A stretch of DNA of 64,000 bases from Planctomycetota bacterium (GTDB taxonomy: Bacteria; Planctomycetota; Phycisphaerae; WQYP01). The position numbers and the translations under genes were made by a program. The notes below the pieces were generated by a model that did no database searches, was not told the origin of the DNA, and saw only the letters and a program-made list of their open reading frames with translations. This document shows, in pieces, positions 6,723 to 50,972 of the stretch (within the stretch, counting starts at the first letter, position 1; each line of letters starts with the position of its first letter). Where the stretch lies: contig JAJYFE010000003.1 of assembly GCA_021785435.1 (NCBI GenBank), forward strand, positions 1 through 64,000, written 5' to 3'.

Positions 6723-6733
6723 ACGCCAAGCCT

Positions 6734-7867: not shown

Positions 7868-7942
7868 GACGATGGTATTATTGCGTCAAGGTGAGGCGGA
7901 CGCTACCCGTCGCGGACTGATGGGGTTTCCGGGAAATTCACG

Positions 7943-34357: not shown

Positions 34358-37300
34358 ATGATCGGGAGACAGGAGCCGATAACAGTGAACCAACCGCCAC
34401 CCATCCGGGAGGGCCAAACCATCACCGGTTCGCTGTTCAGTGAGCCGATGCGGGTGGTGACGGTTCGCACCGAGGGGCCTGACACCTGGATTGCCGGCCT
34501 GGTTGGCCTGCGGAGCCAACGATTTCACGAGGTCACACTGACCGCCGATCAAATCGCCAAGCTCACCATTCTCGATGCCGCGCTCAACTACGCCGGCGAC
34601 GGCCACTTGCTCCGCCTGGGCCTGCAGGCCTATGCGCTGGGCATCGCGTATGAATTCGATCCCTACTTTGGCCTGTCCATTTCCCGCGTGGATCCGCTGC
34701 CGCACCAGTTGGAGGCCGTGTACGACTATCTGCTGAAGCTCGCCCGCGTGCGTTTTCTGCTGGCCGATGACGCCGGGGCCGGCAAGACGATTATGGCCGG
34801 GCTGCTTATCCGCGAACTGGAACTGCGCGGCCTCGCCGAACGCATCCTGGTTGTTGCTCCGGCCAACCTGGCGTTCCAATGGCAACGGGAACTGCGGGAT
34901 AAATTCGAGGCGAAATTCGAGGTCATGCGGGGAACCGATATCCGGGAGCAGTTTGGCTTCAACCAATGGCAGGAAAAAAAGCGGATTATCACCTCACTGG
35001 ATCTGGCCAAACGCGACGACATATTGCCCGGCCTCGGGCAGGCGCACTGGGATCTGGTCATTGTGGATGAAGCCCACCGCATGTCGGCGTCTGATGAAAC
35101 CCACAAAAGCCTGCGCTATAAACTGGGCGAGCTACTCCGCGATACCACCGATCACCTGCTGTTGCTCACCGCCACGCCGCACAAAGGTAACCCTGAAAAC
35201 TTCAGCCTGTTTCTGCAACTGCTCGACCTCGATGCCTATGCGGACGTGAAATCCATCCGCCAGGCGATGGAGCGCCGCCGGGCGCCGTTCTATCTGCGCC
35301 GCACCAAGGAGGCCATGGTCTATTTCCCGCAGCGCCAAGCCGACGGCACCTGGGTGGCCCGGAAGATTTTCACCAAACGCATTCCGCACACCGTGGATTT
35401 TCAGATGGATGGGCCGGAGTTCAAGCTCTATCAGGAGGTCACGCGCTTTGTGAAACGGCACAGCGCCCGGGCGGCGGCGCAGGGGGATGACCCGCGCGCC
35501 CGCGCTGTGGGTTTTCTGATGTCGCTTTATCAGCGCCGGTTGGCCTCCAGCGCCTACGCCATGCGCCACAGCCTGGAAAACCGCGCCCACCGATTGGAAG
35601 ACGGCCTTAAGCATGCCCAGGAGTTGGCCCGCGGAGCGCCGCCGGATTTGCCGTCATCCGAAGAAATCGAAGAAATGGAGGACACCGAACGGGAGCGGCT
35701 GGAAAAAACGTTGGAAGCCATCACGCTGGCGGGTAATGCCGAACAGGTCCGCCTGGAAGTTCAGGAGCTGCGTGAACTTGCCGCCCAGGCCCGCACGGTG
35801 GAGGACGGCGGCGCTGAGGCGAAGCTGTCGCGCCTGAAAGAGCTGCTCCAGAAAGAGGGCTTTTTCGACCGGCCTGACCAGCGCCTGCTCGTGTTTACCG
35901 AGTTTAAGGACACGCTGGATTATCTGGTCGCCAGGTTCAAGGGCTGGGGCTTCAGGGTGGGGTGTATCCATGGCGGCATGAAGCCCGGCTCGCGTGATGA
36001 ACCCGGCACACGGCTCTTCGCCGAGCAGCAATTCCGCGATGGGGCGATTCAGATTTTGGTCGCCACGGAGGCCGCCGGCGAGGGGATCAACCTGCAGGTC
36101 TGCAACATCCTGTTTAACTACGATATCCCCTGGAATCCTAACCGCTTGGAACAACGGATGGGCCGGATTCACCGCTATGGCCAGCACAAGACGTGTCTCA
36201 TATTCAACTTCGTCGCGAGTAACACGATCGAGGGCCATGTTCTGCGGCGTCTGCTGGCCAAGTTGCAGGAAATACGGGACGCGCTCGATGATGACGCCGT
36301 CTTCAACGTGGTCGGCGAAGTGTTGCCGGCCGCGCACGTCGAAAAAGTGCTGCGCGATTATTACGCCGGTAAACTCGGCGATGGCGACCTGGAGGAGCGG
36401 CTGCTGAAAAATGTTGAAGAAGGCCAGTTCCGCGCCATCTGCCAAAACGCGCTGGAAGGCCTGGCCTCTAAAAAGCTCAATCTGCGGATGCTCGTGGAGC
36501 GCCGGGCCTTGGCCCAGGAACGCCGCATGGTGCCCGAAACCATCGCCCGTTTTATCCGCGAAGCAGCGCCCTATGCCCGGCTGGAGCTGAAAACGCTTTC
36601 CACCGTGCCGCATGCGTTCGAGCCGGGCCGCACGCCGCCGGCCTTACGCAGCTACGAACGCGCCCCGGATTGGCGGCTGCCGGCGCTTTCGATCAAGTAC
36701 CCGCGCTGCTCCACGGACCGCGAAGCGGCCGAGAAAAATTCCCTGGAATGGATCACGCCCGGCCATCCACTTTTCGAGGCTATACGGCGGCATACGTCGG
36801 ACCTGGCCGCGGACGCTCTTGGCAAGGGGGCCTGTTTTTACTCGCTGGAGCATGATACCCCGGTACGCCTTGACTTTTATCGCGCCCGCGTGGTGGACGG
36901 GCTTGGGCAGGTCATCCATGAACGGCTCTTCGCCGTGGAAGTGGCCGACGGCAAAGCCCCCGCCATCCGCGAGCCGGGGATCTTGGGCAATTTTACGCCA
37001 GCCCCGGCGCCGCACGATCTGCCTGCGGCAGCCCAGGAGCCGGAGCCAACGGCCTGGCTCCAGAAAACCGCGCTCCAGCCATTTCTGGAGGAAACCCGCC
37101 AAGAGCGGCTGGGGGAAATCGAACGCGTCGCCGAACACGTGAGGCTATCCCTGACCGAGCTCATGCAGAGAGCCGATGACGAAATCGGCAAAGCGGCTAA
37201 TGAGGTGGAGAAAAAGCTGCCCGGCGCGGAGGGGCGGCTTTCCCAGGCGGAAAACCGTCATGCCGAATTGCTGGCCCGCCGGGACCGCCGCCGCCGCGAA

Positions 37301-37798
37301 CTGGAGCGACAACGTTCGCTATCTCTGCAGGCCGTGGAGCGTCTGACCAGTGTTCTGGTTCTGCCGCATCCCGATCGGGATGCGCCGGAGGTGCGCAACC
37401 TCCGGCAAAATCTCCAGACCGAGGCCATCGCCATGCAGGCGGTGCTGGAGCACGAAAAGGCGCAAGGCCGGCAGGTTTATGACGTCCACGAGAAAAATCT
37501 CGGCTACGATATCACCAGTCTGGACTTAGATTCCGGCGAACTGCGGCTGATCGAAGTCAAAGGCCTCGGCGCGGAAAGCGGCTCGGTGCTGCTGACGCCC
37601 AATGAATTACGCGTCGCCCAGGACCGGCCCGAATGCTTCTGGCTCTACGTGGTCACGAACTGCAACGCCCAGCCGACCATTTTCCCACCGATCAAAAATC
37701 CCGCCCGCCTGCCCTGGGGCGAAGTGGTTAAGGTCCAGCACTATGCGATAACGCTTAAAGATATGCGAAGCAGCCTCTCCACGGAGGGAGCAAAATGA
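34358..37798 (+). CDS. SNF2-family helicase with C-terminal DUF3883 domain (defense helicase; DISARM DrmD-like)
   Basis: Walker A DDAGAGKT, DEAH box (VIVDEAHRM), motif VI QRMGRIHRYGQ; C-terminus GYDITSLDLDSGELRLIEVKG...FWLYVV matches DUF3883. Confidence 0.85.
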   Translation: MIGRQEPITVNQPPPIREGQTITGSLFSEPMRVVTVRTEGPDTWIAGLVGLRSQRFHEVTLTADQIAKLTILDAALNYAGDGHLLRLGLQAYALGIAYEFDPYFGLSISRVDPLPHQLEAVYDYLLKLARVRFLLADDAGAGKTIMAGLLIRELELRGLAERILVVAPANLAFQWQRELRDKFEAKFEVMRGTDIREQFGFNQWQEKKRIITSLDLAKRDDILPGLGQAHWDLVIVDEAHRMSASDETHKSLRYKLGELLRDTTDHLLLLTATPHKGNPENFSLFLQLLDLDAYADVKSIRQAMERRRAPFYLRRTKEAMVYFPQRQADGTWVARKIFTKRIPHTVDFQMDGPEFKLYQEVTRFVKRHSARAAAQGDDPRARAVGFLMSLYQRRLASSAYAMRHSLENRAHRLEDGLKHAQELARGAPPDLPSSEEIEEMEDTERERLEKTLEAITLAGNAEQVRLEVQELRELAAQARTVEDGGAEAKLSRLKELLQKEGFFDRPDQRLLVFTEFKDTLDYLVARFKGWGFRVGCIHGGMKPGSRDEPGTRLFAEQQFRDGAIQILVATEAAGEGINLQVCNILFNYDIPWNPNRLEQRMGRIHRYGQHKTCLIFNFVASNTIEGHVLRRLLAKLQEIRDALDDDAVFNVVGEVLPAAHVEKVLRDYYAGKLGDGDLEERLLKNVEEGQFRAICQNALEGLASKKLNLRMLVERRALAQERRMVPETIARFIREAAPYARLELKTLSTVPHAFEPGRTPPALRSYERAPDWRLPALSIKYPRCSTDREAAEKNSLEWITPGHPLFEAIRRHTSDLAADALGKGACFYSLEHDTPVRLDFYRARVVDGLGQVIHERLFAVEVADGKAPAIREPGILGNFTPAPAPHDLPAAAQEPEPTAWLQKTALQPFLEETRQERLGEIERVAEHVRLSLTELMQRADDEIGKAANEVEKKLPGAEGRLSQAENRHAELLARRDRRRRELERQRSLSLQAVERLTSVLVLPHPDRDAPEVRNLRQNLQTEAIAMQAVLEHEKAQGRQVYDVHEKNLGYDITSLDLDSGELRLIEVKGLGAESGSVLLTPNELRVAQDRPECFWLYVVTNCNAQPTIFPPIKNPARLPWGEVVKVQHYAITLKDMRSSLSTEGAK

Positions 37799-38844: not shown

Positions 38845-38845
38845 T

Positions 38846-39436: not shown

Positions 39437-39645
39437 CCACACGAATGGATACGCAAGACCCCGACATCCTGGGATCGTTGCCGGCGCTGCGAAGGGCCGC
39501 GCACCGCGCTCGCCGCCTGGCCATCCGGACCGGTACGCCGTGCTACATCATGCGCCGAGGGAAAATAGTCAACATTGCCATAAAGCGCCGTGGCGGTGGC
39601 GCTGCGCCGCTACGGTCGCAAAGGCAAACTAAAAGCACCACCTGA
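39433..39645 (+). CDS. Small ORF (70 aa) translationally coupled to the zeta-like gene; possible cognate partner
   Basis: ATG overlaps zeta stop (ATGA); Arg-rich; no recognised family. Confidence 0.3.
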   Translation: MTTRMDTQDPDILGSLPALRRAAHRARRLAIRTGTPCYIMRRGKIVNIAIKRRGGGAAPLRSQRQTKSTT

Positions 39646-39712
39646 CGAAAAGGGGCCACAAAGCTCTGGAAGGGCAAAGGTTTGTGCTGGGCAGGCGAGG
39701 CGGGGAAGGCCG

Positions 39713-41329
39713 ATGAAAGTAGAAATCCCTCCAGACATAGAGGCGCTGATTTCCCGCAGCTATCCAGCGATTCTCGCGACCAAAATTCCGAAAGGCGAGA
39801 ATTTTGACGGTGATGCCGAGGAGCTGCAAACACGCGGTACAGCAATGGTCCGATGGTGTTACGGGATCGGGCTTGGGGGCCAGCAGCTGCCAGCCGGTGC
39901 ACTTTGCTTCCGGTTTACTGCATGCTCGAACCAAGACGGACAGGTCCAGCGGTTCAACGATTACTTCGCTGGCTGCGAACGCCGGAACAATTCACATGAG
40001 TGCGGAATCCCGATCGCGCACATTATCCTGCACATCCCGGGGCCCGATGGCAGCGAGGGTTGGGTCGGCGACTGCGACGGACTGCCGACGTTTAGAAAAT
40101 ATGACCAGTTCGGCTGGGTGCTGGAGGATTCCCTCCAATGGCTGCGCTGGTCGAGAGGCGGCATCGACGATAAGCAAAACGTCCAATCGCTCTGTACCTC
40201 GTGGGACCCGAATATCCACAAGCTCGCCGATTATCTGGGGAAAAACTTTGATCTATCCGGCAATAGCTTTGGGAAAGTGAAGATCGGTATCGCCAATCTG
40301 ACCAATGACTTGGCATCGAAACTTCTGTTCATCCCCGCTAATTCCGCCGGAGCCCATAAGCCCGTCCCCACGCAGGGCGACACCGAGGTCTTGAAGGAAT
40401 TTTACCGTCTTGATGCGGAGTTTTTACCATCCACTCTGAAGCTTCCCGATTGTGAAATCGCAAGCAGCCTGTTCGCCGCGTTGAGCTTCGCCTCCGGCCT
40501 ACGCCTCGGTTTTGCGGCTACCGTGGTTGTTCAAGGCGGCTGCCCGATCTTTCGTGAACTGCGGCCATGCCGAGGCGGCGTGACGGAGGCTCTGTGCGCC
40601 CCGACTGGCGAGGACGGGAATGCGGTAAAAAAGATCGCGTGGCTTTTTCTTCAGAGGCTGGCCGCTGACTTATCCCAGCTCTCACGGAACGATCCGCATT
40701 TCATGTGCACGCATCCGCTCGTCGGCGCTATCCAGAGAATTAACGAGGCGCTTTCCCGGCGCGGCGTGGAACATGGCGATGATCTCTACCTCACCCTCGA
40801 GCGGGCCTGCCTTTTGATCTCGGTGGCAATTGAGGCGGTCAGCAGGTGTTACGAGCCGAACGAAACTGGGGTGACTTGGCGGCCAACAAGAGAAAAGGGG
40901 GATGCTCGGGTCGAGAGGTGGATCGGCTCCAAGGCGTACGGATTGTGGGCCAGGTACCGCCACGCGCTCGCGCACCGGCTCAAGCTCATCGAGAACGATG
41001 CACCGAGCGCCAGTCGCCCTGGGGCGCGCGGCCAGGGCGCTGCCGCGCTCTCCGATGTCGTCCGCGCGTTTTTGGAGCGCGGCTCTGAGATTAACGGCCG
41101 GCTGCGCGACCTGTGGACCTATGAGCGGTTCCTGATGACGGCCTTTAACCATCTGGTACTGCGCGTCATCGGCTACGACGGCAAGGCAACTGATTGGATG
41201 GACAAGCCGGTGTCATTATACCAGATCAACGGTGGCAATGCACCGGCGCCCGAACTCAATAGTCTTAACAGAACTTTCTCGTCAGCGGACCAGCCCCGCG
41301 ACAGCACAGAAGCGGAGGGGCAACCTTGA
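39713..41329 (+). CDS. Hypothetical 538-aa protein, no recognisable domain, immediately upstream of and overlapping the MTase
   Basis: GGGGAAGG RBS then ATG at 39713; stop TGA overlaps TTG start of DUF1156 gene. Confidence 0.5.
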   Translation: MKVEIPPDIEALISRSYPAILATKIPKGENFDGDAEELQTRGTAMVRWCYGIGLGGQQLPAGALCFRFTACSNQDGQVQRFNDYFAGCERRNNSHECGIPIAHIILHIPGPDGSEGWVGDCDGLPTFRKYDQFGWVLEDSLQWLRWSRGGIDDKQNVQSLCTSWDPNIHKLADYLGKNFDLSGNSFGKVKIGIANLTNDLASKLLFIPANSAGAHKPVPTQGDTEVLKEFYRLDAEFLPSTLKLPDCEIASSLFAALSFASGLRLGFAATVVVQGGCPIFRELRPCRGGVTEALCAPTGEDGNAVKKIAWLFLQRLAADLSQLSRNDPHFMCTHPLVGAIQRINEALSRRGVEHGDDLYLTLERACLLISVAIEAVSRCYEPNETGVTWRPTREKGDARVERWIGSKAYGLWARYRHALAHRLKLIENDAPSASRPGARGQGAAALSDVVRAFLERGSEINGRLRDLWTYERFLMTAFNHLVLRVIGYDGKATDWMDKPVSLYQINGGNAPAPELNSLNRTFSSADQPRDSTEAEGQP

Positions 41330-44300
41330 TCCCCCAATCATGCAGACGTCTCGCCGAAGTGGATTTTCCGATTGCCGCGGTGTCGCGGCATTCGGTGCGG
41401 GAAAAGTCCATCCGGCACGGGCATCCATCCACGCTGCATTTATGGTGGGCGCGGCGGCCGCTGGCGGCGTGCCGAGCCGTGCTGATGGCACTGCTTTTGC
41501 CGGATCCGTGTGATACGCAATGCCCGCAAACGTTCAAAGCCGCGGCACGGCAAATCTTATTGGCGTTTCCGGAGCGGCCCTCGCGCTGGGACCAGGATAT
41601 CCAAAGCGACGAACGCCTGCGCCATGTTCTGCTGCATGAATTCATCGCCGATTTCGCCAACTGGGATCATGCCGCTAATCCGGCGTATCTGAAGACGGCA
41701 CGTGACCTGGTCAAGGCCGCCCATCCGGAAGAAACGCCGCTGGTGGTTGACCCCTTCGCCGGCGGCGGCTCGATTCCACTGGAAGCGTTGCGCATCGGCT
41801 GCGATGCCTTCGCCAGTGATTTGAATCCCGTGGCGTGCCTGATCCTGAAAGTGATGCTGGAGGATATTCCGCGGGAAACCCGCCGCAGAGGCGCGGAGAA
41901 CGCCGAATCATTGGCGGATGAACTCCGCCGAGTGGGGAAGCAGATAAAAGAGGAGGTGGAAAAGGAAGTCGGCGATTTGTACCCCAAAGATCCCGACGGC
42001 GCCACACCGATTGCGTATCTCTGGGCGCGGACGGTTAAATGCGAAGCGCCCAACTGCGGCGCGGAAATACCGCTGGTGCGGTCGTTCTGGCTGTGCAACA
42101 AACCGAACCGCAAACGGGCGCTGCGGTACACGGTGGTTCGTTGTGGCACGGGCTTCCAGCCCGTGAGGGAGGGAAACGGCCATGGGCACGATGCCCATGC
42201 CACCGTTGAGTTCGGAAACGGCCATGGGCAGGATGCCCATGCCACCGTTGAGTTCGAGATTTTCGAGCCGAAATCGGAAAAAGACGTTCCCGCCGGCACC
42301 GTGACGCGGGCCAAGGCGACCTGTCTATGCTGCGGGGCGGTTTTGCCGCCGCAGCGCGTGCGCGCGCAATTGGCCGCCCAGCGCGGCGGCGCGGATGTGA
42401 TATTTGCTTCTGACGCGGGCGATTGTGGCACGGGCTTCCAGCCCGTGATGGATGGAAATGACCATGGGCAGAACGCCCATGCCACCACCATCCAGAAACG
42501 CCGCGGCGCCTACCTGCCGCACTGGACACGCGAGGGGGCGACCTACAGCGTAACCTTTCGGCTCGCCGACAGCCTGCCGGCCAAGGTGCTCGCGGCGTGG
42601 GTCGGGGAGCGTGAGGATATCGTCAAAAGGGCAGCGACCATGGGCCGGCCGCTCACCGACGACGAAATGCGGCGCCTGGACGAGTTGCATTCGCAGCGTA
42701 TCGAAAAGTACCTTGACTCCGGCGCCGGCGAGTGCCAACTGAGGGACCCGCGGATCGCGAATATCGTTCGTGATTCGCTTCTGCATTTTGACGGCGACAG
42801 GTATGACCTGGCCGTATGGTGTGTCATGCCAAACCACGTACACGTGGTAGTTCGGCCCCGCCCCGGCCACGAACTGTCTGATATCCTCCACTCCTGGAAA
42901 AGTTTCACGGCGACAAAAGTCAACCGGCTGCTCGGCCGCACCGGTGCTTTCTGGCAGCCGGAATGTTACGACCACCTGATCCGCGACTGGGATGAACTCG
43001 CGCACGCTGTCGAGTACGTAATGGACAACCCGGGCAAGGCTGGCCTGCGGGATTGGCCCTGGGTCGGCCGCGGCACGGGCTTCCAGCCCGTGATGAACGG
43101 AAATGACCATGGGCAGGATGCCCATGCCACGACGCATGTGCCGCAACGCGTTGCTGGCGCGCGGATGTTGGCCGTGGTGACGCTCAAGCCCGGCCAGCCG
43201 GGCCGGCATTATCGCCTGCCAACCCCACCTGATTATCAGGCCGTCCGGAAGGCGCAGGATCGGCTCAAGGCCATTCTCGACGAATGGGAGCGGGGCGGGA
43301 AGAAGGGGCTTTGCCCCGTGCCGGATGAGCCGACGCCCGCCGGCGGTGGCTCCGGTGCCGGCCGCGCCTTCAGCGTCCAAAAATACGGCATGCTCCAGTG
43401 GGGCGACCTTTTCACGGCGCGGCAGAAGGTGACGCTGGTGCCCCTGGCGGCCGGCGTTGGCGCCGCAGCTCGCGAAAATCCAGCCTTGTCGAAGCTGTTA
43501 GCGTGCGCGCTGGGCATATTTGCGCGATCATGCAATGGTAACGCACGCATGCACCCGAACAGCTCCGTTGCGCCAGCCTTCGGAATGCAGACGCTTCCCA
43601 TCACCTGGACTTTCCCTGAGACAGTCATATCCGGCGGACGATCAGAGCACTTTGATGGAGCCCTCCGGCTTGTTGGGGACGCGCTCGACGGCCCCGGTAT
43701 CCCGGCGCGCAGCGGCGGGCAAGTTGAGCAGGCTGACGCGTCGGAAGTTCCCCTCCCCAGCGGCTCATCCAGCGCGTGGTTCACGGACCCGCCATACTAC
43801 GACGCCATCCCCTATTCCGATCTTTCGGACTTCTTCCTGGCGTGGCTCAAGCGCTGCCTTCCGGGCAACGGCGGCCTGCGCGACCCGTTCGACCCCGCCA
43901 ACAGGTTATCACCGAAATTACGCGAGGCCGTCCAGGACGAAACCAAAGTGGACAGCGGCCGACCAAAGGACCGTGCATGGTTCGAGGAGAAAATGGCGGC
44001 GGCTTTCGCCGAGGGCCGCCGTATTCTCCGTGACGACGGGGTCGGCTGCGTGGTATTTGCGCACAAGACCACCGAAGGCTGGGAAGCCCTGCTCTCCGGT
44101 ATGACCCGCGGCGGCTGGACGGTCACCGGTTCCTGGCCCATCGCCACGGAAATGAGCTCGCGCCTGCGCGCCCGCGACTCCGCCGCCCTTGCCACCAGCG
44201 TGCACCTTATCTGCCGCCCGCGGCCGGATGACGCGCCGGTGGGCGATTGGGGCGAGGTTCTGCGCGAATTGCCCAAACGCGTTGGCGACTGGATGGAACG

Positions 44301-45192
44301 GCTGCAAGGCGAAGGCATTCGCGGGGCGGATTTGGTGTTTGCCTGCATCGGACCGGCGCTGGAAATTTTCAGCCGCTACCGCAAGGTTGAAACCGCCGAT
44401 GGTCGGGAAGTGAAATTGGCCGAATACCTGGAAAAAGTCTGGGAAGTGGTTGGCCGTACGGCGTTGGAAAACGTCTTAGGCTCGGCGGAGGCGAAAGTGC
44501 GTAACGGCGCCGCGGGGGCATTGGAAGAAGATGCCCGGCTGACGGCCCTGTTTCTGTGGGCACTGCAAAGCACGGATGTTAAAGCCCCAGCCGATCGGTC
44601 CGATCCGTCCGGTTCGTCTGATGACGCCGAGGCCGACGAAAACGACGATGAGGACGCCTCCGCGCCTCGGCGTTCCAGCGGCTTTTCGCTCGTTTTTGAC
44701 GTCGTCCGCCGGTTCGCCCAGCCATTGGGGGTAGACCTTTCCAAATGGGAAGGGCGGATCATCCAGACCAGCAAAGGCGTGGTGCGGCTTCTGCCGGTTG
44801 GCGAACGGGCCAAGCAGCTCTTTGGCGAAGAAGGCGCCGCGGTGATGGCCAGCCGGCTGGAAAGCTGGGCCGATCCACAGCAAACGCTGTTTCCAAAAAA
44901 TGAGGCCGACTCACCGCGGAGGCGCGGAGGACGCGGAGCTGAAAAAAGCATTCGGGAGGAGGAAGCTTTGCGGATTCGTGGTGAAATCCAGGCCACCACG
45001 CTGGACCGCGTTCACGCCGCCATGCTGCTGCAGGCCGGCGGCCAGACCAACGGCCTGCGCGCCCTGATTAAGGCCGAACAGCAACGCGGCCCGGATTTCC
45101 TGCGGCTGGCCAATGCCCTGTCGGCGCTTTATCCTTCTGACAGCGAAGAAAAGCGATTATTGGATGCCATGCTGTTGGCCGTGCCGAGGTAA
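41326..45192 (+). CDS. DUF1156-family N6-adenine DNA methyltransferase (DrmMI/PglXI-like) carrying in-frame REP and RAYT insertions
   Basis: N-terminus ...VREKSIRHGHPSTLHLWWARRPLAACRAV is the DUF1156 signature; MTase motif I VVDPFAGGGS and motif IV TDPPYY; 1288 aa versus ~1000 expected. Confidence 0.8.
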   Translation: MIPQSCRRLAEVDFPIAAVSRHSVREKSIRHGHPSTLHLWWARRPLAACRAVLMALLLPDPCDTQCPQTFKAAARQILLAFPERPSRWDQDIQSDERLRHVLLHEFIADFANWDHAANPAYLKTARDLVKAAHPEETPLVVDPFAGGGSIPLEALRIGCDAFASDLNPVACLILKVMLEDIPRETRRRGAENAESLADELRRVGKQIKEEVEKEVGDLYPKDPDGATPIAYLWARTVKCEAPNCGAEIPLVRSFWLCNKPNRKRALRYTVVRCGTGFQPVREGNGHGHDAHATVEFGNGHGQDAHATVEFEIFEPKSEKDVPAGTVTRAKATCLCCGAVLPPQRVRAQLAAQRGGADVIFASDAGDCGTGFQPVMDGNDHGQNAHATTIQKRRGAYLPHWTREGATYSVTFRLADSLPAKVLAAWVGEREDIVKRAATMGRPLTDDEMRRLDELHSQRIEKYLDSGAGECQLRDPRIANIVRDSLLHFDGDRYDLAVWCVMPNHVHVVVRPRPGHELSDILHSWKSFTATKVNRLLGRTGAFWQPECYDHLIRDWDELAHAVEYVMDNPGKAGLRDWPWVGRGTGFQPVMNGNDHGQDAHATTHVPQRVAGARMLAVVTLKPGQPGRHYRLPTPPDYQAVRKAQDRLKAILDEWERGGKKGLCPVPDEPTPAGGGSGAGRAFSVQKYGMLQWGDLFTARQKVTLVPLAAGVGAAARENPALSKLLACALGIFARSCNGNARMHPNSSVAPAFGMQTLPITWTFPETVISGGRSEHFDGALRLVGDALDGPGIPARSGGQVEQADASEVPLPSGSSSAWFTDPPYYDAIPYSDLSDFFLAWLKRCLPGNGGLRDPFDPANRLSPKLREAVQDETKVDSGRPKDRAWFEEKMAAAFAEGRRILRDDGVGCVVFAHKTTEGWEALLSGMTRGGWTVTGSWPIATEMSSRLRARDSAALATSVHLICRPRPDDAPVGDWGEVLRELPKRVGDWMERLQGEGIRGADLVFACIGPALEIFSRYRKVETADGREVKLAEYLEKVWEVVGRTALENVLGSAEAKVRNGAAGALEEDARLTALFLWALQSTDVKAPADRSDPSGSSDDAEADENDDEDASAPRRSSGFSLVFDVVRRFAQPLGVDLSKWEGRIIQTSKGVVRLLPVGERAKQLFGEEGAAVMASRLESWADPQQTLFPKNEADSPRRRGGRGAEKSIREEEALRIRGEIQATTLDRVHAAMLLQAGGQTNGLRALIKAEQQRGPDFLRLANALSALYPSDSEEKRLLDAMLLAVPR
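42143..42256 (+). repeat. REP-like composite hairpin cluster inside the MTase gene, in-frame (35 codons)
   Basis: Hairpin A GGCACGGGCTTCCAGCCCGTG plus duplicated hairpin B GGCCATGGGCA(C/G)GATGCCCATGCC followed by accgttgagttc twice. Confidence 0.6.
42425..43140 (+). mobile_element. REPtron: REP-associated tyrosine transposase (RAYT / IS200-like Y1 TnpA) flanked by same-orientation REP hairpin units, inserted in-frame in the MTase gene
   Basis: HUH motif VMPNHVHVVV and ...FWQPECYDHLIRDWDELAHAVEYVMDNPGKAGL (catalytic Tyr); REP units 42425-42484 and 43082-43140; possible ATG at 42448; no stop before the MTase resumes. Confidence 0.65.
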
Positions 45193-45200
45193 AGGACCTA

Positions 45201-46276
45201 TGTTGCGATTCGAACACATCAACATTCGTGGGTTCAAGTCCATTGAGCGATTGGAGGATTTCGCGCTCGGGCAGCTCAACGTCCTCATTGGCGCCAACGG
45301 TGCGGGTAAAAGCAACTTTGTGGAGTTCTTCCGGCTCCTCGGGGCGATCCGCCAAGGGCGGCTGCGAGCGTACATGGAGCGAAATGCCCCGGCGGACGGC
45401 TATTTCTACAAGGGCATAAAGCAAACCCGGCGCCTTGAGGCCGCGCTGGATTTCGGCATGGGCAACGGATACAGCTTCTGCCTTGAGCCGACCGCGGACG
45501 GAGGCGTGCTCATTGGGGATGCGACAGACTACCGTGGGCTAGGCGGTCAAAGTCCCGAGGTCGGCCATGCGTACCCAGTGAACGACCGGGAATCGCAGAG
45601 CGCTTCGTTCTGGATGGCGCCTGGAGTGCCTGATTGGCAGGTTTATCACTTCCACGACACCAGCGCAACCGCCGGCATGCGCCGCGAAGCCGGCGTCGAT
45701 CAGGCGGAAGCCCTGGCTCCGAACGGCGATAACCTGGCGGCGTTCCTCTTGGCCCTGCGTGCGCACCACGGTGAAAGCTATCAGCTCCTACGCCAGACGG
45801 TGCAGCGAGTGATGCCGCATTTCGATGACTTTGACCTTCGGAAGCGCGATGGGAAAAACGAGGAACTGGTCCGGCTGACCTGGCGTCAGAAAGGCTCGGA
45901 CTATATCTTCCAACCGGGCCACCTTTCGGACGGCACCATTCGCTTTATCTGTCTGGCCACCGCGCTGCTGCAACCCAACCCACCCGCGACCGCCGTTTTT
46001 GACGAGCCGGAACTGGGGCTGCACCCGGAAGCGCTGGTTATTCTGGCCGGCCTGTTTCGGTCGGCGTCAGCTCGGATGCAGATCATCGTGGCCACGCAGT
46101 CGCCGGTTTTGCTGAATGAATTCGAGCTGGCGGATGTGATCACCGTCGACAACGTCCAGGGCGCGACGCAGTTTAACCGGCTCGATAAAGAAGCCCTGCG
46201 CCAGTGGCTGGAGGACTACACCCTCGGCGACCTGTGGCAAAAACGAACGCTGCGTGGAGGCGTGAACCATGCTTGA
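45201..46276 (+). CDS. AAA/ABC-type ATPase (AAA_21-like), AbiLi-like
   Basis: Walker A GANGAGKSN, Walker B AVFDEPELGLHP; 358 aa; 8 bp after MTase stop. Confidence 0.8.
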
Positions 46277-46955: not shown

Positions 46956-47121
46956 GGTTGCGGAGTAGCGGCAGGCGAAAACTCAATTGCCTTGGCCGAC
47001 CACGGTGGTAGGGCCGCCGGACCGCGGTCAATCGCCACCTCGGCGGCAAGAGAACGGCGCCCTCGGGGGCGAACGTGCCCCCGACTGGCCAAGGCGGTCC
47101 TGGCGCTTTATCCTGACGGTT

Positions 47122-47466: not shown

Positions 47467-47615
47467 TCTTACTGTGGTCGTCGCGGAATGGGTAGCCAAG
47501 GCAGAGGGCGACCTTAAAACTGCCGTGCACACCTTGAAGTTGGGGCCGGAATGTCCGACGGAAACTGTCGCATTTCACGCCCAGCTGTGCCACGGGGATG
47601 TTCACCGCGGAGGGC
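47450..47615 (+). pseudogene. HEPN-domain toxin N-terminal fragment, truncated by the downstream GxxExxY gene
   Basis: ...VAEWVAKAEGDLKTAVHTLKLG...VAFHAQ matches the HEPN N-terminal helix; sequence after AFHAQ is replaced by the start of the next gene. Confidence 0.45.
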
Positions 47616-48035: not shown

Positions 48036-48047
48036 ATGGAGTTGATC

Positions 48048-50972
48048 ATGGAACCCTGGTACAAAATCACCACGCCGCGTAAGGAAGTGCGCGAAGGCCG
48101 GTCGTTCAACCCGGATGAATTCGCCATCCACTTAGAGCAGGTCATCGGCAAAACCGCGCCGGAAGATTACCGTGACCCGAAGCAATTTTTCGCCCGGACC
48201 TGCTTCACGCGGGCATTGCGCGAACATGCGGGTATGGTGCTGCGCCGGCTGGCCGGAGAGACCGTAAACACGGCGCCGGTGATGACGCTGATTACCCAGT
48301 TCGGCGGCGGCAAAACCCACACCCTGACGGCCCTTTACCACCTGGCGGTCAGCGGGGCCAAAGCGGCGGATTATCCCGGCATTGGCCAGCTGATAGGCCA
48401 AGCCGGCCTGGCCGCTGTGCCGGAGGCGCGGGTCGCGGCGTTCGTGGGCAACGCCTGGGACCCGAAAGCTGGCCGTGAAACGCCATGGATTGATATCGCC
48501 TGGCAGTTGGCCGGTGAAAAGGGTGTGGCCGAATTAGGAAACTCCGCCCAGACTACGCCGCCGGGGACGGAGGCGCTCCATCGCGTCTTTAAGGCGGCCC
48601 ATGCGCCGGTGCTGCTGCTGTTTGACGAGGTGCTTAATTTTCTCAATCGCCACCGGGGCATGGCCGATCAATTCCATGCTTTCATTCAGAATTTGACCGT
48701 GGCGACCACCGGCGCCACGCGCGGCGCCGCGGTGATCAGCCTGCCGCGGAGCCAGGTGGAAATGACCGATTGGGATATGCAGTGGCAGGACAAGATCACC
48801 AAGGTCGTCCGGCGCGTGGCCAAGGACCTGATTGCCAACGATGAGGCGGAAATCAGCGAGGTGGTGCGGCGCCGGCTTTTTGAGGATCCCCAGACCGAGG
48901 AAGCCCGCCAAACCCTGGAACGGGCGCGGAAAACCGCCGCCCGGATCTATGCCGACTGGTGTTTTGAACGCCGGGCGCAACTGCCGCCGGAATGCACCGC
49001 GGTGGATACCTCCACCACCCAGTCCAAGGCCAGGGATTTCCTGCGCGGCCGCTTCGAGGCCTGCTATCCATTTCATCCGGCTACGCTCTCGGTGTTCCAG
49101 AGAAAATGGCAGTCGCTGTCCCAGTACCAGCAGACGCGCGGCACGTTGGCCATGCTGGCCCAGTGGATTTCCTGGGCTTACAAGGATGGCTATGCGCACG
49201 CCCGGCGCGAGCGGCTGCTTACCCTCGGCTCGGCGCCGCTGCAGGTGCAGGAGTTCCGCGCGGTGGTGCTGGGGCAGTTGGGAGAGTCACGCCTGGAGGC
49301 AGCCATCGGCGTGGACATTGCCGGCGAGCAAGCCCACGCCCGCGCCCTTGATGCGGACGCCAAAGGAGCGCTGAAGGACATTCACCGCCGGGTGGCGACG
49401 GCGATATTCTTTGAGTCGTCCGGCGGTCAGATTGACAAAGTGGCCCATCTGCCGGAGCTGCGTTTCGCGCTCGGCGAGCCGGAAGTGGAAACCACCACGG
49501 TGGACAGCGCGGTGCGCGCCCTGGAGGATCGGTCGTATTACATTCGCACCGTTGGCTCGGACGGTTTTCGCATCGGTTACGAACCCACGATGAAAAAGGT
49601 GGTCAGCGACCGCCGGGCGTCGCTGGATGAAGAATCCGAAATCAGGCCCGCCATGCGGAAACTCGTCGAAGAGCAGTTCCGCCGGGGGGCCAGCGTACCG
49701 GTCATTCCCTTCCCGGCGGACGGGGCAGCCGTCCCGGACAATCCGAAGCTGACCCTGGTGATCCTGGACCCGACGCAGGAATGGACGGGCAATGGAGTCT
49801 GGCGCGAACAGCTTGCCCAGTGGACGCGCCAGCGCGGCCAATCGCCCCGGCTCTATCCGGGCGCGTTGGTCTGGTGCCTGAAGAAGCCCGGCCGCGATCT
49901 GCGCGAAAGCGTAGAGCTTTGGCTGGCGTGGAAGCGCGTGGAGCGGGAGATGGCGGAAGGAACGCTTGGCGAAGCCCGCGAGCGCGCTGAGTCGGCTGAA
50001 CTTCATTCGAAGGTGGTGGCGGCCGAGGCGGCGGCCAAAGACGAAGTGTGGGGCGGATACCGTTTCGCCGTCCTGGCCGAGGCCAGGGAGTCGGTCGCCG
50101 AAGGAGGCGACTCAACAAGGCAAGGCGGCCTGAAAGTTATAGACCTCGGTGCCGGCCATTCCTCCAGCGGCGAGACGCTGTGCGGCCGGGTTATCACCGC
50201 TTTGAAATCCCAGGCGATTCTGAGCGAATCGGTCGGCGCGGGCTATATCGAACGCAACTGGCCGCCGGCGCTCAAAGAAGCTGGAGCCTGGCCGCTGGCC
50301 AGCCTGCGACAGAGCTTTTTGAACGGCGCCCTGACGCGTCTACTGGACCCGGATGCCACCTTGCGTGGCAAAATCGTCGAATTCGTCAGCAAAGGTGATT
50401 TCGGTCTCGCCTCTGGCCCGCAGCCGGGCGGCGGCTACGAGCGCCTCTGGTACGCCGAGTTGCTGGCCCCGGACGAGGTCGCCTTTGAACCGGGCGTATT
50501 TCTGCTGACCAAAGCCAAGGCCCAGGCGATCAAGAATATTGCCGAGGCAGAATGGTTTGCCGTCAGGGGCGACGGCGCCGCATCCGCTCGCCCCGCCAGC
50601 GGGCGGGCAGGCTTTGTCGAGTCGTCTCCTTCGGCGACCGGCGGGGGCATCCGCTCGGGCGAGCTTTTCAGACCGCAAGCCGGAAACGAAGAGGTCCAAA
50701 CCAAAGGCGGGCAACCGGAAGCCGCCTGCCCGGCGGAGTCCGCCGCAACCGAGGCGCGTAAGAACTATCGGATCGTCGGCCAGGTGCCGCCGGAGCTTTG
50801 GAACCGTCTCGGCACACGGATCTTGCCCAAGCTGCGCAGCGCCGGCGCGGAGCTGCACGTCGGCGTCGAGTTCCAGATCGCCGTGGAGCCGCACGCCGCT
50901 ACCGCGTTCGAGTCCGACATTCATCAGATCCTCGCCGATCTCGGTCTGACCGGCCAGGTGCGAGTGGAATAA
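48048..50972 (+). CDS. DUF499-family ATPase (predicted defense-system component)
   Basis: N-terminus MEPWYKITTPR... and LITQFGGGKTHTLTALYHL (DUF499 P-loop signature); 975 aa. Confidence 0.8.
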   Translation: MEPWYKITTPRKEVREGRSFNPDEFAIHLEQVIGKTAPEDYRDPKQFFARTCFTRALREHAGMVLRRLAGETVNTAPVMTLITQFGGGKTHTLTALYHLAVSGAKAADYPGIGQLIGQAGLAAVPEARVAAFVGNAWDPKAGRETPWIDIAWQLAGEKGVAELGNSAQTTPPGTEALHRVFKAAHAPVLLLFDEVLNFLNRHRGMADQFHAFIQNLTVATTGATRGAAVISLPRSQVEMTDWDMQWQDKITKVVRRVAKDLIANDEAEISEVVRRRLFEDPQTEEARQTLERARKTAARIYADWCFERRAQLPPECTAVDTSTTQSKARDFLRGRFEACYPFHPATLSVFQRKWQSLSQYQQTRGTLAMLAQWISWAYKDGYAHARRERLLTLGSAPLQVQEFRAVVLGQLGESRLEAAIGVDIAGEQAHARALDADAKGALKDIHRRVATAIFFESSGGQIDKVAHLPELRFALGEPEVETTTVDSAVRALEDRSYYIRTVGSDGFRIGYEPTMKKVVSDRRASLDEESEIRPAMRKLVEEQFRRGASVPVIPFPADGAAVPDNPKLTLVILDPTQEWTGNGVWREQLAQWTRQRGQSPRLYPGALVWCLKKPGRDLRESVELWLAWKRVEREMAEGTLGEARERAESAELHSKVVAAEAAAKDEVWGGYRFAVLAEARESVAEGGDSTRQGGLKVIDLGAGHSSSGETLCGRVITALKSQAILSESVGAGYIERNWPPALKEAGAWPLASLRQSFLNGALTRLLDPDATLRGKIVEFVSKGDFGLASGPQPGGGYERLWYAELLAPDEVAFEPGVFLLTKAKAQAIKNIAEAEWFAVRGDGAASARPASGRAGFVESSPSATGGGIRSGELFRPQAGNEEVQTKGGQPEAACPAESAATEARKNYRIVGQVPPELWNRLGTRILPKLRSAGAELHVGVEFQIAVEPHAATAFESDIHQILADLGLTGQVRVE

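What the first reader, a model, noticed from the sequence alone, without database searches (positions are those of the whole stretch)
42143..43161. REP hairpins and a RAYT-like Y1 transposase embedded in-frame, with no stop codon, inside the DUF1156 methyltransferase ORF
The MTase ORF runs continuously for 1288 codons. Between MTase motifs I and IV it contains two foreign in-frame segments. The first is a 105-bp REP hairpin cluster (42143-42256) with a duplicated B hairpin and duplicated 'accgttgagttc'. The second is a 744-bp block (about 42418-43161). That block is a RAYT/IS200-like HUH transposase (HVHVV motif, YVMDNP tyrosine) bracketed by two further copies of the same ~60-bp composite hairpin unit in direct orientation. 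Both insert lengths are multiples of 3. The RAYT reads in the host frame. Each REP unit carries ATG codons in that frame. No stop separates the RAYT from the downstream MTase segment. The alternatives are a chance frame-preserving REPtron insertion, selection to keep the MTase ORF open, or a genuinely chimeric MTase-transposase protein.
Basis: seen in the sequence. Interest (0 to 1): 0.85.

Follow-up and report, generated by a model that had tools for sequence, protein, structure and literature searches.

The report
Transposase embedded in-frame in methylase gene
A small selfish element, a hairpin-flanked tyrosine transposase gene, sits inside a bacterial anti-phage methylase gene without breaking its reading frame, and this transposase family does the same in dozens of other genes, some of them normally essential, a habit I found described in no paper.

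Summary
ORF 41326-45192 (+, 1288 codons) is HmaB, the DUF1156 adenine methylase of an Hma defence system. It carries two in-frame foreign segments between methylase motifs I and IV.

- Site A (42143-42256) holds a GTGG-tagged inverted REP dimer with no transposase. Its second hairpin lies in a 42-nt tandem repeat.
- Site B (42425-43130) holds a RAYT (TnpA-REP-like Y1 HUH transposase) between two 61-nt copies of the same dimer, 645 nt (215 codons) apart.

Both sites are loops between confidently modelled beta strands.

Three further alleles, at least 98% identical and from other assemblies, keep both inserts in frame. The methylase core evolves at dN/dS 0.11-0.18, so the interrupted gene is under purifying selection.

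This is not an ancient fusion. The 84%-identical relative has other repeats and no RAYT at these loops. In 19 further HmaB homologues, RAYTs that do not form a single clade sit at site A. One relative is frameshifted at the junction.

The same RAYT family sits in frame in HsdM, HsdR, Mod-like and Type ISP enzymes, DinG-like helicases and aminoacyl-tRNA synthetases, among others. That covers 14 of 61 metagenome loci and 57 of the best 150 cluster representatives.

Best reading: a REPtron-like selfish element tolerated in permissive loops and filtered by selection on the host gene. In-frame REPs are known. I found no description of in-frame RAYTs.

The parts
41326..45192 (+). hmaB: DUF1156 N6-adenine DNA methylase ORF (1288 codons, TTG start), interrupted in frame by the elements below
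   Evidence: DUF1156 E 1e-22. (PADLOC HmaB E 4e-96). (homologues 50-85% identical). (dN/dS 0.11-0.18 among four alleles).
41749..41772 (+). Methylase motif I, DPFAGGGS (aa 142-149)
   Evidence: Read from the translation. Nearly invariant in alignments A1 and A4.
43786..43800 (+). Methylase motif IV, DPPYY (aa 821-825)
   Evidence: Read from the translation. Invariant in A1 and A4.
42143..42256 (+). Site A insert, a REP dimer without a RAYT. It comprises the GTGG tag (42143-42146), hairpin A (42147-42165), hairpin B (42181-42199) with CCAC (42200-42203), and a second hairpin B (42223-42241) with CCAC (42242-42245). It encodes CGTGFQPVREGNGHGHDAHATVEFGNGHGQDAHAT.
   Evidence: Alignment A1 shows a loop of about 7 residues here in uninterrupted homologues. 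In the AF2 model it lies between strands E264-271 and E307-313 with pLDDT below 50.
42172..42255 (+). Two copies of a 42-nt tandem repeat (hairpin B plus the native GTTGAGTTC). The copy number is polymorphic among alleles at least 98% identical: 1, 2 or 3 copies.
   Evidence: spacing 42. (P0511 has 1 copy, the window and P0513 have 2, P0512 has 3).
42425..42485 (+). Left REP dimer of the site-B element: GTGG tag, hairpin A (42429-42447), hairpin B (42463-42481), CCAC. It holds an in-frame ATG at 42448.
42490..43071 (+). RAYT (TnpA-REP-like Y1 HUH transposase) core, aa 389-582. The HUH motif HVH is at 42835-42843 and the catalytic Tyr codon is at 43015-43017 (EYVMDNP).
   Evidence: (free-standing homologues up to 70% identical). 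(profile against 4ER8, E 3e-9). (AF2 pLDDT 85; Foldseek top hit 4er8_A, E 5e-8).
43070..43130 (+). Right REP dimer of the site-B element: degenerate tag GCGG, hairpin A (43074-43092), hairpin B (43108-43126), CCAC. It lies 645 nt (215 codons) downstream of the left copy and holds an in-frame ATG at 43093.
34358..37798 (+). hmaA: SNF2-type helicase of the same defence system, the presumed restriction partner
   Evidence: PADLOC HmaA E 2e-173. (DrmD-like).
48036..50972 (+). hmaC: DUF499 AAA+ ATPase of the same system
   Evidence: HmaC E 2e-91. (DUF499_antiphage).

Best explanation
A REPtron-like selfish element has colonised two surface loops of HmaB, the adenine methylase of an Hma (helicase-methylase-ATPase) anti-phage system.

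The element is a RAYT, a Y1 HUH tyrosine transposase of the TnpA-REP kind. It is flanked on each side by a 61-nt inverted dimer of GTGG-tagged REP hairpins. These dimers are the family's small non-autonomous repeats, which are dispersed through Planctomycetota and allied genomes. One loop (site B) holds dimer-RAYT-dimer. The other (site A) holds a dimer alone, with a slipped 42-nt repeat.

Shown: the element has no stop codon in one sense frame, and its period is a multiple of three, so the methylase frame runs through it.

Inferred: the gene is translated into one 1288-residue polypeptide. In that protein the RAYT is an extra globule on disordered, hairpin-encoded linkers at the tip of a beta hairpin of the target-recognition insert, and methylation still works.

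Inferred: the in-frame state results from a filter. Insertions that break a methylase whose partner nuclease is present, or that break an essential gene, are lost. The copies that remain are therefore intergenic or in frame in permissive loops.

The repeats and the RAYT turn over quickly at the same loops. The way they insert was not established. One possibility, consistent with the direct dimer repeats but untested, is that a circular 'RAYT plus one dimer' intermediate integrates at a dimer already resident in the loop.
For: Anatomy and identity of the RAYT:
- Anatomy.
- Pfam and NCBIfam matches.
- A profile hit to E. coli TnpA-REP 4ER8, with the HUH and Y-x-x-x-N-P motifs aligned.
- AF2 model of pLDDT 85 whose best PDB match is 4er8_A, followed by IS200/IS605 TnpAs. 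The hairpin-coded ends have pLDDT 44-62.

The hairpins are REPs:
- The conserved left boundary is GTGG + CACGGGC-TTCCA-GCCCGTG in 127 dispersed copies, usually followed by a second stem-loop ending GTGCCAC.
- The exact 21-mer is found in more than 120 loci, mostly of Planctomycetota, with some Verrucomicrobiota and other phyla.
- The loops are conserved while the stems covary between hosts: CACGGGC, CACAGGC, GCGGGC and ACAGGC.
- The GTGG variant of the GTAG tag is described for Opitutus terrae (PMC3733652).

Free-standing RAYTs of this family are commonly flanked by the same kind of dimers in direct orientation, and their ORFs often read through the dimers.

The host gene is alive:
- Four alleles from four assemblies keep both inserts in frame.
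- The methylase core has dN/dS 0.11-0.18 at dS 0.04-0.08.
- hmaA and hmaC are intact neighbours.

The sites look like loops: confident strands flank both inserts, and the inserts themselves have low pLDDT.

It is not an old fusion:
- The 84% relative L001 has a different palindromic repeat at site A, and two hairpins with different stems and no RAYT at site B.
- The embedded RAYTs do not form a single clade among free-standing ones. The window's RAYT is nearest to free-standing P0121 at 70% identity.
- RAYT identity and methylase identity are discordant, for example 88% against 69%.

Filter:
- Relative L124 is frameshifted at the right junction.
- The five free-standing loci tested are intergenic, not out-of-frame intragenic.

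Generality:
- In-frame RAYTs occur in N6_N4 methylases, HsdM, HsdR, a Type ISP enzyme, DinG-like helicases and ValRS.
- 57 of the best 150 cluster representatives are 420 aa or longer with an internal RAYT. They include aminoacyl-tRNA synthetases, GcpE, CPSase and MetH.
Against: - There is no expression or protein evidence. Translation through the insert and retained methylase activity are inferred only.
- The full-length AF2 model is poor overall (mean pLDDT 54.7, catalytic domain below 50). 'Surface loop' therefore rests on local secondary structure and on the alignment.
- No copy of these hairpins lies elsewhere in the 64-kb window or on the allele contigs. I could not show that the family is dispersed in this genome, nor that this genome holds another RAYT.
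- No empty site exists among the close alleles, so neither the insertion event nor its target was observed.
- No conserved target sequence or target-site duplication was found.
- RAYT transposition has never been demonstrated experimentally (my knowledge of the field; PMC8266576 says the dissemination mechanisms of REPs are poorly understood).
- The same loops are hit again and again: site A in 19 HmaB homologues, and one site in five DinG-like genes whose RAYTs are only 49-61% identical. Loop tolerance alone may not explain this. It could mean targeting.
- The spacing between left and right dimers is a multiple of 3 in 12 of 20 free-standing copies (p about 0.013). This hints at adaptation by the element rather than a pure host-side filter.
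Confidence: 0.68

Rival explanations
1. The element is adapted to living in frame, like an intein that does not splice. RAYT elements of this family are built to be open end to end and with a period divisible by three. They reach expression by being translated as part of an expressed host protein, or from the in-frame ATG inside the left dimer. They prefer genes the host cannot lose: essential enzymes and methylases of restriction-like systems. They integrate at REP dimers already resident in such loops, which keeps the frame automatically.
For: - 14 of 61 sampled loci and 57 of the best 150 cluster representatives are embedded.
- The hosts are biased towards restriction-modification and defence genes and DNA or RNA enzymes. 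Two further copies sit in the spacers of R-M operons.
- The same site is reused by divergent RAYTs in the DinG-like helicases and in HmaB.
- Dimer-RAYT-dimer direct repeats have spacing 0 mod 3 in 8 of 8 embedded copies and 12 of 20 free-standing copies.
- ORFs of free-standing copies read through the dimers.
- In-frame ATGs lie at 42448 and 43093.
Against: - The enrichment of 0 mod 3 among free-standing copies is weak (p about 0.013, and the copies are not all independent).
- Dimers are read in all three frames in other genes.
- Many free-standing RAYTs stop a few codons after the core.
- The fraction of 57 of 150 is inflated, because each chimaera forms its own 50% cluster.
- The host bias could simply reflect which proteins have tolerant loops, or that defence islands collect mobile DNA.
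Confidence: 0.22
2. The RAYT is a domesticated functional domain. It has been recruited by HmaB as a working part of the defence enzyme, for example as a single-strand DNA nuclease or hairpin-binding module. On this reading the protein is a true chimaeric methylase-HUH enzyme.
For: - The HUH motif and the catalytic Tyr are intact in all embedded copies examined.
- The RAYT shows few nonsynonymous changes among four alleles (dN/dS 0-0.31).
- Other HmaB homologues carry nuclease-type domains in frame: GIY-YIG in P0010 and P0051, and a DUF559/Vsr-like domain in P0049.
- 19 HmaB homologues carry a RAYT at site A.
Against: - The closest relative (84%) and most homologues lack it.
- It sits at a different loop in the window than in the other 19.
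- The embedded RAYTs do not form a single clade and are as close to free-standing copies as to each other.
- The DNA hairpins of the mobile element are retained on both sides.
- The same RAYT family is embedded in ValRS, AlaRS, GcpE, CPSase and a glycosidase, where a defence role makes no sense.
- The dN/dS estimate for the RAYT rests on only 2-9 substitutions.
Confidence: 0.06
3. The gene is dead, or the arrangement is an artefact. Either the methylase is a pseudogene that happens to stay open in a GC-rich genome, or the assembler joined a free-standing RAYT into the methylase through repeated hairpins.
For: - The window has 62% GC and many long spurious ORFs.
- The two site-B dimers share exact runs of up to 24 nt, which could mislead short k-mers.
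- A frameshifted relative exists.
Against: - Four independent assemblies give the same architecture with 2% divergence and no frameshift.
- dN/dS in the methylase core is 0.11-0.18.
- The other two sense frames of the block carry 8-9 stops.
- Analogous embedded RAYTs occur on contigs of megabase size. P0027 lies on a 4.29-Mb contig whose name (ptg...c) suggests a long-read assembly.
Confidence: 0.03

Closest known systems
REPtron: RAYT / TnpA-REP with flanking REPs (E. coli TnpA-REP, PDB 4ER8; Nunvar 2010, Ton-Hoang 2012, Messing 2012, Quentin 2018 PMC6006769, Corneloup 2021 PMC8266576)
   Same: - A single-domain Y1 HUH enzyme with HUH, WQ and Y-x-x-x-N-P motifs.
- Its best sequence and fold match is 4ER8.
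- It is flanked by tagged REP stem-loops that also occur as dispersed short repeats.
   Different: - Here the whole REPtron lies inside a host ORF, in frame and without its own stop.
- The flanks are complete inverted REP dimers in direct orientation on both sides.
- The tag is GTGG rather than GTAG.
- About 60 extra helical residues lie between beta-1 and the HUH strand.
[quoted passage not shown]
Intragenic REPs and Rickettsia palindromic elements (Ogata 2000; Di Nocera 2013 PMC3733652; Delihas 2011 PMC3184786)
   Same: - Short palindromic repeats inserted in frame in functional genes.
- They encode 20-40 extra residues and are often dimers.
- They are often found in DNA replication and repair genes and in tRNA synthetases.
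- The PVC bacterium Opitutus terrae has many of them, including the GTGG tag variant.
   Different: Those cases concern only the small non-coding repeats. Here the autonomous partner, a 194-residue transposase, is carried in frame as well, and this happens recurrently in many host families.
Inteins and in-frame homing-endonuclease insertions
   Same: - A selfish gene embedded in frame in conserved, often essential or DNA-handling proteins.
- The same sites are reused in homologous hosts.
- It persists because disrupting the host gene is costly.
   Different: - There is no Hint or splicing domain (Pfam).
- The junction residues are not conserved.
- Nothing suggests removal from the protein.
- The enzyme is a Y1 HUH transposase with DNA hairpin ends.
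IS200/IS605 insertion sequences (IS608, ISDra2)
   Same: - A Y1 HUH transposase.
- Subterminal hairpins on the same strand at both ends.
- These elements use a circular single-strand intermediate, the model for the integration step proposed here.
   Different: - The Y motif is Y-x-x-x-N-P, not Y-x-x-x-Q.
- The two ends are the same dimer rather than distinct left and right ends.
- No conserved 4-5 nt target was found.
- There is no tnpB.
Hma system / DUF499-centred BREX-related systems (PADLOC HmaA/B/C; PMC11232893; bioRxiv 10.1101/2025.10.09.681413)
   Same: The host locus has HmaA, HmaB (N-terminal DUF1156, a target-recognition insert after core strand 2) and HmaC (DUF499).
   Different: - HmaB here carries three kinds of in-frame repeat insertions.
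- Other defence genes (SoFic, HEC-01A/B) are nested between the Hma genes.

Membership tests
RAYT / TnpA-REP (class 2 Y1 HUH transposases) | HUH motif on a beta strand | tested here: met
   MPNHVHVVV, with HVH at aa 504-506. It aligns to LPEHMHCIW of 4ER8. Invariant in A5 and A6.
RAYT / TnpA-REP (class 2 Y1 HUH transposases) | Single catalytic Tyr in a Y-x-x-x-N-P helix, plus the WQ motif | tested here: met
   EYVMDNPGKAG (Y564) aligns to YIYINPVKHG of 4ER8. FWQPE is present.
RAYT / TnpA-REP (class 2 Y1 HUH transposases) | Fold of TnpA-REP | tested here: met
   AF2 model with pLDDT 85.2. The Foldseek top hit is 4er8_A (E 5e-8, TM-score 0.64 normalised to the target), followed by ISDra2, IS608 and IS200 TnpAs.
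RAYT / TnpA-REP (class 2 Y1 HUH transposases) | Gene flanked by REP stem-loops of a dispersed family | tested here: met
   REP dimers lie on both sides. The same hairpin is dispersed in more than 120 loci of other genomes.
RAYT / TnpA-REP (class 2 Y1 HUH transposases) | Curated NCBIfam cut-off for REP_Tyr_transpos (80 bits) | tested here: not met
   The segment alone scores 72.4 bits and the full protein 67.5 bits. The model covers only positions 26-145, and the family has an extra helical insert.
RAYT / TnpA-REP (class 2 Y1 HUH transposases) | Binds and cleaves its REP in single-stranded DNA | not testable with these tools
   This needs a biochemical assay.
GTAG-superfamily REP / REPIN | Tetranucleotide tag at the foot of the stem-loop (GTAG or a variant) | tested here: met
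   GTGG is conserved immediately 5' of the stem in 127 copies. The GTGG variant is documented for O. terrae GTAG-20 (PMC3733652). The right site-B copy has GCGG.
GTAG-superfamily REP / REPIN | Stable 6-9 bp stem-loop, maintained by compensatory changes | tested here: met
   The stems are perfect and 7-8 bp long. Folding z-scores range from -2.3 to -5.2. The stems covary between hosts while the loops TTCCA and ARGAT stay constant.
GTAG-superfamily REP / REPIN | Two REPs in inverted orientation forming a doublet | tested here: met
   The structure is GTGG + hairpin A, a spacer, then hairpin B + CCAC, with complementary outer arms.
GTAG-superfamily REP / REPIN | Many dispersed copies in the same genome | tested here: inconclusive
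   There is no copy outside hmaB in the 64-kb window or on three allele contigs. The rest of the genome was not available.
IS200/IS605 insertion sequence | TnpA with a Y-x-x-x-Q motif, distinct left and right ends, and a conserved 4-5 nt target | tested here: not met
   The Y motif is Y-x-x-x-N-P. Both ends are the same dimer. No base is conserved outside GTGG...CCAC.
HmaB methylase of an Hma / DUF499-centred system | DUF1156 N-terminal domain plus N6-adenine methylase motifs I and IV | tested here: met
   PF06634 at E 1e-22. DPFAGGGS and DPPYY are present. PADLOC HmaB at E 4e-96.
HmaB methylase of an Hma / DUF499-centred system | Neighbouring HmaA helicase and HmaC DUF499 ATPase | tested here: met
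   HmaA at E 2e-173 (34358-37798). HmaC at E 2e-91 (48036-50972).
HmaB methylase of an Hma / DUF499-centred system | Curated NCBIfam cut-off for DUF1156_antiphage (1000 bits) | tested here: not met
   It scores 183.6 bits in three stretches. The model appears to describe a different subfamily, and the inserts split the match.
In-frame selfish palindromic DNA (RPE-like) | Repeat inserted in frame in a gene that stays under purifying selection, at a surface site | tested here: met
   It is in frame in four alleles, with core dN/dS 0.11-0.18. It lies between confident beta strands and has low pLDDT itself. The evidence for surface exposure is only model-level.
Intein | Hint domain and conserved splice-junction residues | tested here: not met
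   There is no Hint or intein Pfam hit. The first residue of the insert varies (C, S, G) and there is no His-Asn at the end.

The most novel reading that the evidence does not exclude
This RAYT family has an intein-like way of life without splicing. The whole transposase-plus-REP element is built to be read through. It integrates at REP dimers already sitting in frame in tolerant loops. It persists preferentially in genes the host cannot afford to lose: essential enzymes and the methylases of restriction-type defence systems. It is expressed as part of the host protein.

Filled, REP-only and differently filled versions of the same loop in close relatives would then be the first natural record of a RAYT and its REPs moving as a unit.
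Probability: 0.25. Interest if true: 0.85.

Novelty: new variant of a known kind. Interest (0 to 1): 0.68.

Why it matters
How REPs and their RAYT transposases spread is a long-standing open question, and RAYT transposition has never been seen directly.

These loci show the same protein loops empty, filled with REP dimers only, or filled with dimer-RAYT-dimer, in relatives 84-98% identical. A 42-nt hairpin repeat also varies in copy number between strains. That gives concrete, datable insertion and turnover events to analyse, and substrates to test in vitro.

It also shows that a complete transposase gene can persist inside functional genes, some of them normally essential, without splicing. 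This extends the 'selfish DNA in protein-coding genes' idea from 100-nt palindromes to an autonomous element.

There are practical consequences.
- Such chimaeras are named inconsistently in databases. Examples seen here are 'transposase', 'adenine-specific DNA methylase/RayT' and 'isochorismate synthase'.
- Surveys of Y1 proteins have discarded them as fusion or annotation errors.
- For defence-system biology, HmaB and other restriction-modification methylases tolerate 250-residue insertions in their target-recognition region.

Tried and rejected
- Alignment A3 mixed methylases and free-standing RAYTs to give AF2 depth for both. MAFFT spread the RAYTs over the whole length, so I dropped it and ran two separate jobs.
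- The word-indexed protein searches with RAYT cores returned only short free-standing proteins. They did not even return the query's own host protein. They therefore could not tell how common embedding is. The exhaustive hmmsearch and the metagenome scan did.
- I looked for RAYTs near the 120 dispersed hairpin-A loci and found none.
- I looked for a conserved target sequence or target-site duplication next to the dimers and found none.
- The lower synonymous divergence of the RAYT compared with the methylase looked interesting. It disappeared once divergence was seen to be mosaic along the whole gene.
- An intein or intron-like removal was considered and rejected. There is no Hint domain, the junctions are not conserved, and the flanking dimers are direct rather than complementary.
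- I tried to assign the RAYT to a Quentin et al. subclass from motifs. NHVH / WQ / YV.xNP fits 2.4 or 2.7 about equally, so I left it open.
- The look-up of encoding contigs had no record for the window's own protein. The source organism is therefore unknown. The hairpin's distribution points to Planctomycetota.


Full report
**What is there.** The window holds one continuous ORF, 41326-45192 on the + strand, of 1288 codons.
- Its N-terminus is a DUF1156 domain (E 1e-22). An IS200-like Y1 transposase domain is detected at aa 493-546. NCBIfam's REP-associated tyrosine transposase model matches aa 473-579 at E 1e-18, below its curated cut-off.
- PADLOC calls the protein HmaB (E 4e-96). It calls the ORFs at 34358-37798 and 48036-50972 HmaA (E 2e-173) and HmaC (E 2e-91).
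- The host is therefore the adenine methylase of an Hma system. A 2025 preprint calls these DUF499-centred BREX-related systems. It describes their methylase as having a DUF1156 helical N-terminus and a target-recognition insert after core strand 2.
- Motif I (DPFAGGGS, aa 142-149) and motif IV (DPPYY, aa 821-825) are intact and bracket the region of interest.

**The repeats.**
- A 64-nt unit occurs at 42141, 42423 and 43068, with a partial copy at 42183, all on the + strand. Its two hairpins occur 3 and 4 times, against none expected, and nowhere else in the 64 kb.
- Hairpin A is CACGGGC-TTCCA-GCCCGTG, preceded by GTGG. Hairpin B is CATGGGC-AGGAT-GCCCATG, followed by CCAC. The outer arms are complementary.
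- The unit is therefore an inverted dimer of tagged REPs. Folding as single-stranded DNA gives z-scores of -4.3, -4.4 and -2.3 on the + strand.
- The exact 21-mer of hairpin A is present in more than 120 loci of the species-representative genome collection. Most are Planctomycetota (Phycisphaerae, Tepidisphaerales, Pirellulales, Sedimentisphaerales). Some are Verrucomicrobiota and other phyla.
- In 127 of these copies the only conserved flank is GT in front of GGCAC, which gives the GTGG tag. A second stem-loop ending in GTGCCAC usually follows.
- Di Nocera et al. described GTAG-tagged REPs whose tag is GTGG in most elements of one Opitutus terrae family.
- Between hosts the loops stay the same while the stems change on both sides: CACAGGC in L002, GCGGGC in L003 and ACAGGC in L001. 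This is what a structure-selected repeat looks like.

**The two inserts.** I aligned 24 homologues.
- Site A lies after NRKRALRYxVV[RK] and before VEFE[IV]FEPK. Uninterrupted proteins have about seven residues there. The window has 35 residues encoded by one REP dimer, whose hairpin B lies in a 42-nt tandem repeat (42172-42213 and 42214-42255).
- Site B lies after QRGGADVIF and before R[IT]GGARMLAVVTL. The window has REP dimer (42425-42485), RAYT core (42490-43071), REP dimer (43070-43130). The two dimers are 645 nt apart, which is 215 codons.
- In the 744-nt block only the host frame and one antisense frame are free of stops. The two other sense frames have 8 and 9 stops.
- GC and GC3 of the RAYT (0.63 and 0.77) are close to those of the methylase (0.61-0.64 and 0.70-0.73).

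**The RAYT.**
- A profile of the window segment and 72 free-standing relatives hits E. coli TnpA-REP (4ER8) at E 3e-9. MPNHVHV aligns to the HUH strand and YVLENPAKAG to the catalytic-tyrosine helix.
- With that alignment AF2 gives pLDDT 85. The best PDB match is 4er8_A (E 5e-8), followed by ISDra2, IS608 and IS200 transposases. The hairpin-encoded ends have pLDDT 44-62.
- Free-standing relatives up to 70% identical are abundant. Named examples come from Phycisphaerales, Coatesbacteria and Hydrogenedentes.
- Their called ORFs often begin or end with the same kind of dimer-encoded peptides (GTGVPPV...HGQDGHAT) on both sides. So dimer-RAYT-dimer in direct orientation, readable through, is a common state of the family.

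**Is the host gene alive?** Yes, on current evidence.
- The 90% cluster of this protein has three more members, from ENA ERZ27237177, GCA_027429475.1 and GCA_027334965.1, at least 98% identical. All have both inserts in frame.
- They differ in the number of 42-nt hairpin-B repeats at site A: 1, 2 or 3 copies.
- Codon-wise, the methylase core has dS 0.04-0.08 and dN/dS 0.11-0.18. The RAYT core has 2-5 synonymous and 0-4 nonsynonymous differences per pair, giving dN/dS 0-0.31. That is too few changes to say more than 'not obviously decaying'.
- Divergence is mosaic along the gene.
- The full-length AF2 model is poor overall (mean pLDDT 54.7). The strands that flank both sites are confident, with block pLDDT 86-96. 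The inserts are below 50. Site A sits between E264-271 and E307-313. Site B sits between the VIF strand and E608-620. This fits beta-hairpin tips in the target-recognition insert.

**Not an old fusion.**
- The closest other homologue (P0002 on L001, 84% identical) has a different palindromic repeat at site A (RRGAESAE...LCG). At site B it has two hairpins with ACAGGC stems and no RAYT.
- Nineteen other homologues in the top 120 carry a RAYT in frame, but at site A. There are two RAYT subtypes and several REP families.
- In a neighbour-joining tree (no bootstrap support) these embedded RAYTs are scattered among free-standing ones. The window's RAYT groups with free-standing P0121.
- One 'free-standing' sister (P0270) really is intergenic, between rplU and an Fe-S gene.
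- RAYT identity and methylase identity are discordant, for example P0007/P0065 at 88% against 69%.
- A close relative of P0072 (L124) has the RAYT at site A, but the methylase is frameshifted at the right junction, inside expanded hairpin repeats. Broken versions therefore exist.

**Generality.**
- I scanned metagenome contigs for relatives of the window's RAYT. Of 61 full-length loci, 14 (12 non-redundant) have the RAYT frame open for hundreds of codons on both sides.
- Pfam identifies the hosts as N6_N4 methylases (L126, L131), HsdM (L132, L151), HsdR (L146), a Type ISP enzyme (L163), DinG-like helicases (L164, L171; also L148, L168, L170) and ValRS (L129).
- The five DinG-like hosts are 78-87% identical downstream of the insert, yet their RAYTs are only 49-61% identical and have different REP flanks. 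One site has been filled repeatedly, or its content turns over.
- The five free-standing loci with large co-directional neighbours are intergenic: HlyD|AcrB twice, HsdM|HsdS, Mod|Res, and upstream of a peptidase.
- An exhaustive profile search of 1.84 billion cluster representatives found 33,293 hits. Of the best 150, 57 are 420 aa or longer with the RAYT internal. These carry Eco57I, MmeI, Type ISP, TaqI and N6 methylase domains. They also carry class I tRNA synthetase, AlaRS, DinG-like helicase, chorismate-binding, GH38, GcpE, CPSase and MetH domains. This fraction is inflated by clustering, because each chimaera is its own cluster. The absolute number of different hosts is large, and several are enzymes that are normally essential.
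- The small dimers alone also sit in frame, in all three frames, in genes whose conserved motifs I read as LeuRS, MutS, DnaE, RecG and KdsB (identified by eye, not scanned against Pfam). That agrees with the published intragenic REPs.

**Mechanism, and what is shown or inferred.**
- Shown: the anatomy, the identity of the parts, conservation of the reading frame in four alleles, purifying selection on the host, turnover at the same loops, a frameshifted relative, and the recurrence in other hosts.
- Inferred: translation through the insert, retained methylase function, and selection as the cause of the in-frame state.
- Speculative: a circle of RAYT plus one dimer (645 nt) integrates at a resident in-frame dimer. 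This would produce the direct repeats and keep the frame. Spacing between left and right dimers is a multiple of three in 8 of 8 embedded copies and 12 of 20 free-standing copies (binomial p 0.013). This hints that the element itself may be adapted to being read through. I rate that reading at about one in four.

**Literature.**
- In-frame palindromic repeats are well known: RPEs, BRE, BOX and intragenic REPs.
- I found no paper in the held library that describes RAYTs embedded in host ORFs.
- Source databases label such proteins 'adenine-specific DNA methylase/REP element-mobilizing transposase RayT', 'transposase' or 'menaquinone-specific isochorismate synthase'.

**Verdict.** The finding is real and correctly described. 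It is one instance of a wider and apparently undescribed habit of a RAYT family. I class it as a new variant of known kinds (REPtrons, and in-frame selfish palindromes), of moderate to high interest.

Noticed in passing
window 41878-41906, 44909-44937 (+), 44657-44672 (inverted partner), 48017-48030 (-): A second repeat family (CCGCGGAGGCGCGGAG.ACGC.GAG, read as 'RRRGAENAE' or 'RRRGGRGAE') is also in frame in hmaB. It adds 8 residues after motif II relative to most homologues. Another copy lies just upstream of hmaC. In the 84% relative L001 a palindromic element of this type fills site A.
   Followed up: partly
window 37795-41329 and 45113-48035: Other defence-type genes are nested between the Hma genes. 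They are SoFic (37795-38844), a zeta-toxin-like ORF (38834-39436; named from the Zeta_toxin/AAA_33 label of the corresponding L001 gene), an unassigned 579-aa ORF, and the HEC-01A/B pair (AAA ATPase plus DUF4276, 45113-46955). There is also a 145-aa ORF (47598-48035) whose counterpart on L202 is PDDEXK_3.
   Followed up: partly
window about 43335-43385 (aa 670-686): The window allele reads TPAGGGSGAGRAFSVQK where the three alleles at least 98% identical read TPPIGTLG----FRVQR. Both versions occur among distant homologues. Twenty-five of the nucleotide differences to each allele fall in codons 627-706. This looks like a recombination patch in the target-recognition region.
   Followed up: partly
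homologues P0010, P0051, P0049 (alignment A1): Other HmaB homologues carry further in-frame domains. A GIY-YIG domain lies after YPxDPD in P0010 and P0051 (P0010 also has a RAYT at site A). A DUF559/Vsr-like domain lies at site A in P0049.
   Followed up: no
L124 5140-8900: A close relative of P0072 has the N-terminal part of HmaB plus the RAYT in one ORF (5140-6705) and the rest in another frame (6702-8900). The break falls inside tandemly expanded right-end hairpins. This is either a frameshifted pseudogene or an assembly error in a repeat.
   Followed up: partly
L139 and L179: Free-standing RAYTs of the same family sit in the spacers of restriction-modification operons: HsdM|RAYT|HsdS and Mod|RAYT|Res. 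Together with the embedded cases, this suggests an association of the family with R-M loci.
   Followed up: no
L146 and L181 (HsdR host): The RAYT is flanked by arrays of REP units, roughly 5-7 on each side with a 51-nt period (read as GTGFQP.(D/N)EKE.GQDGR). L181 has one more unit than L146 on the right. This is a second case of in-frame copy-number variation of hairpin repeats.
   Followed up: no
L202 and L203, left dimer of site B: In two of the alleles at least 98% identical, the left hairpin A of site B no longer matches the exact 19-mer, although the peptide is unchanged. I did not check whether the change is compensated in the stem.
   Followed up: no
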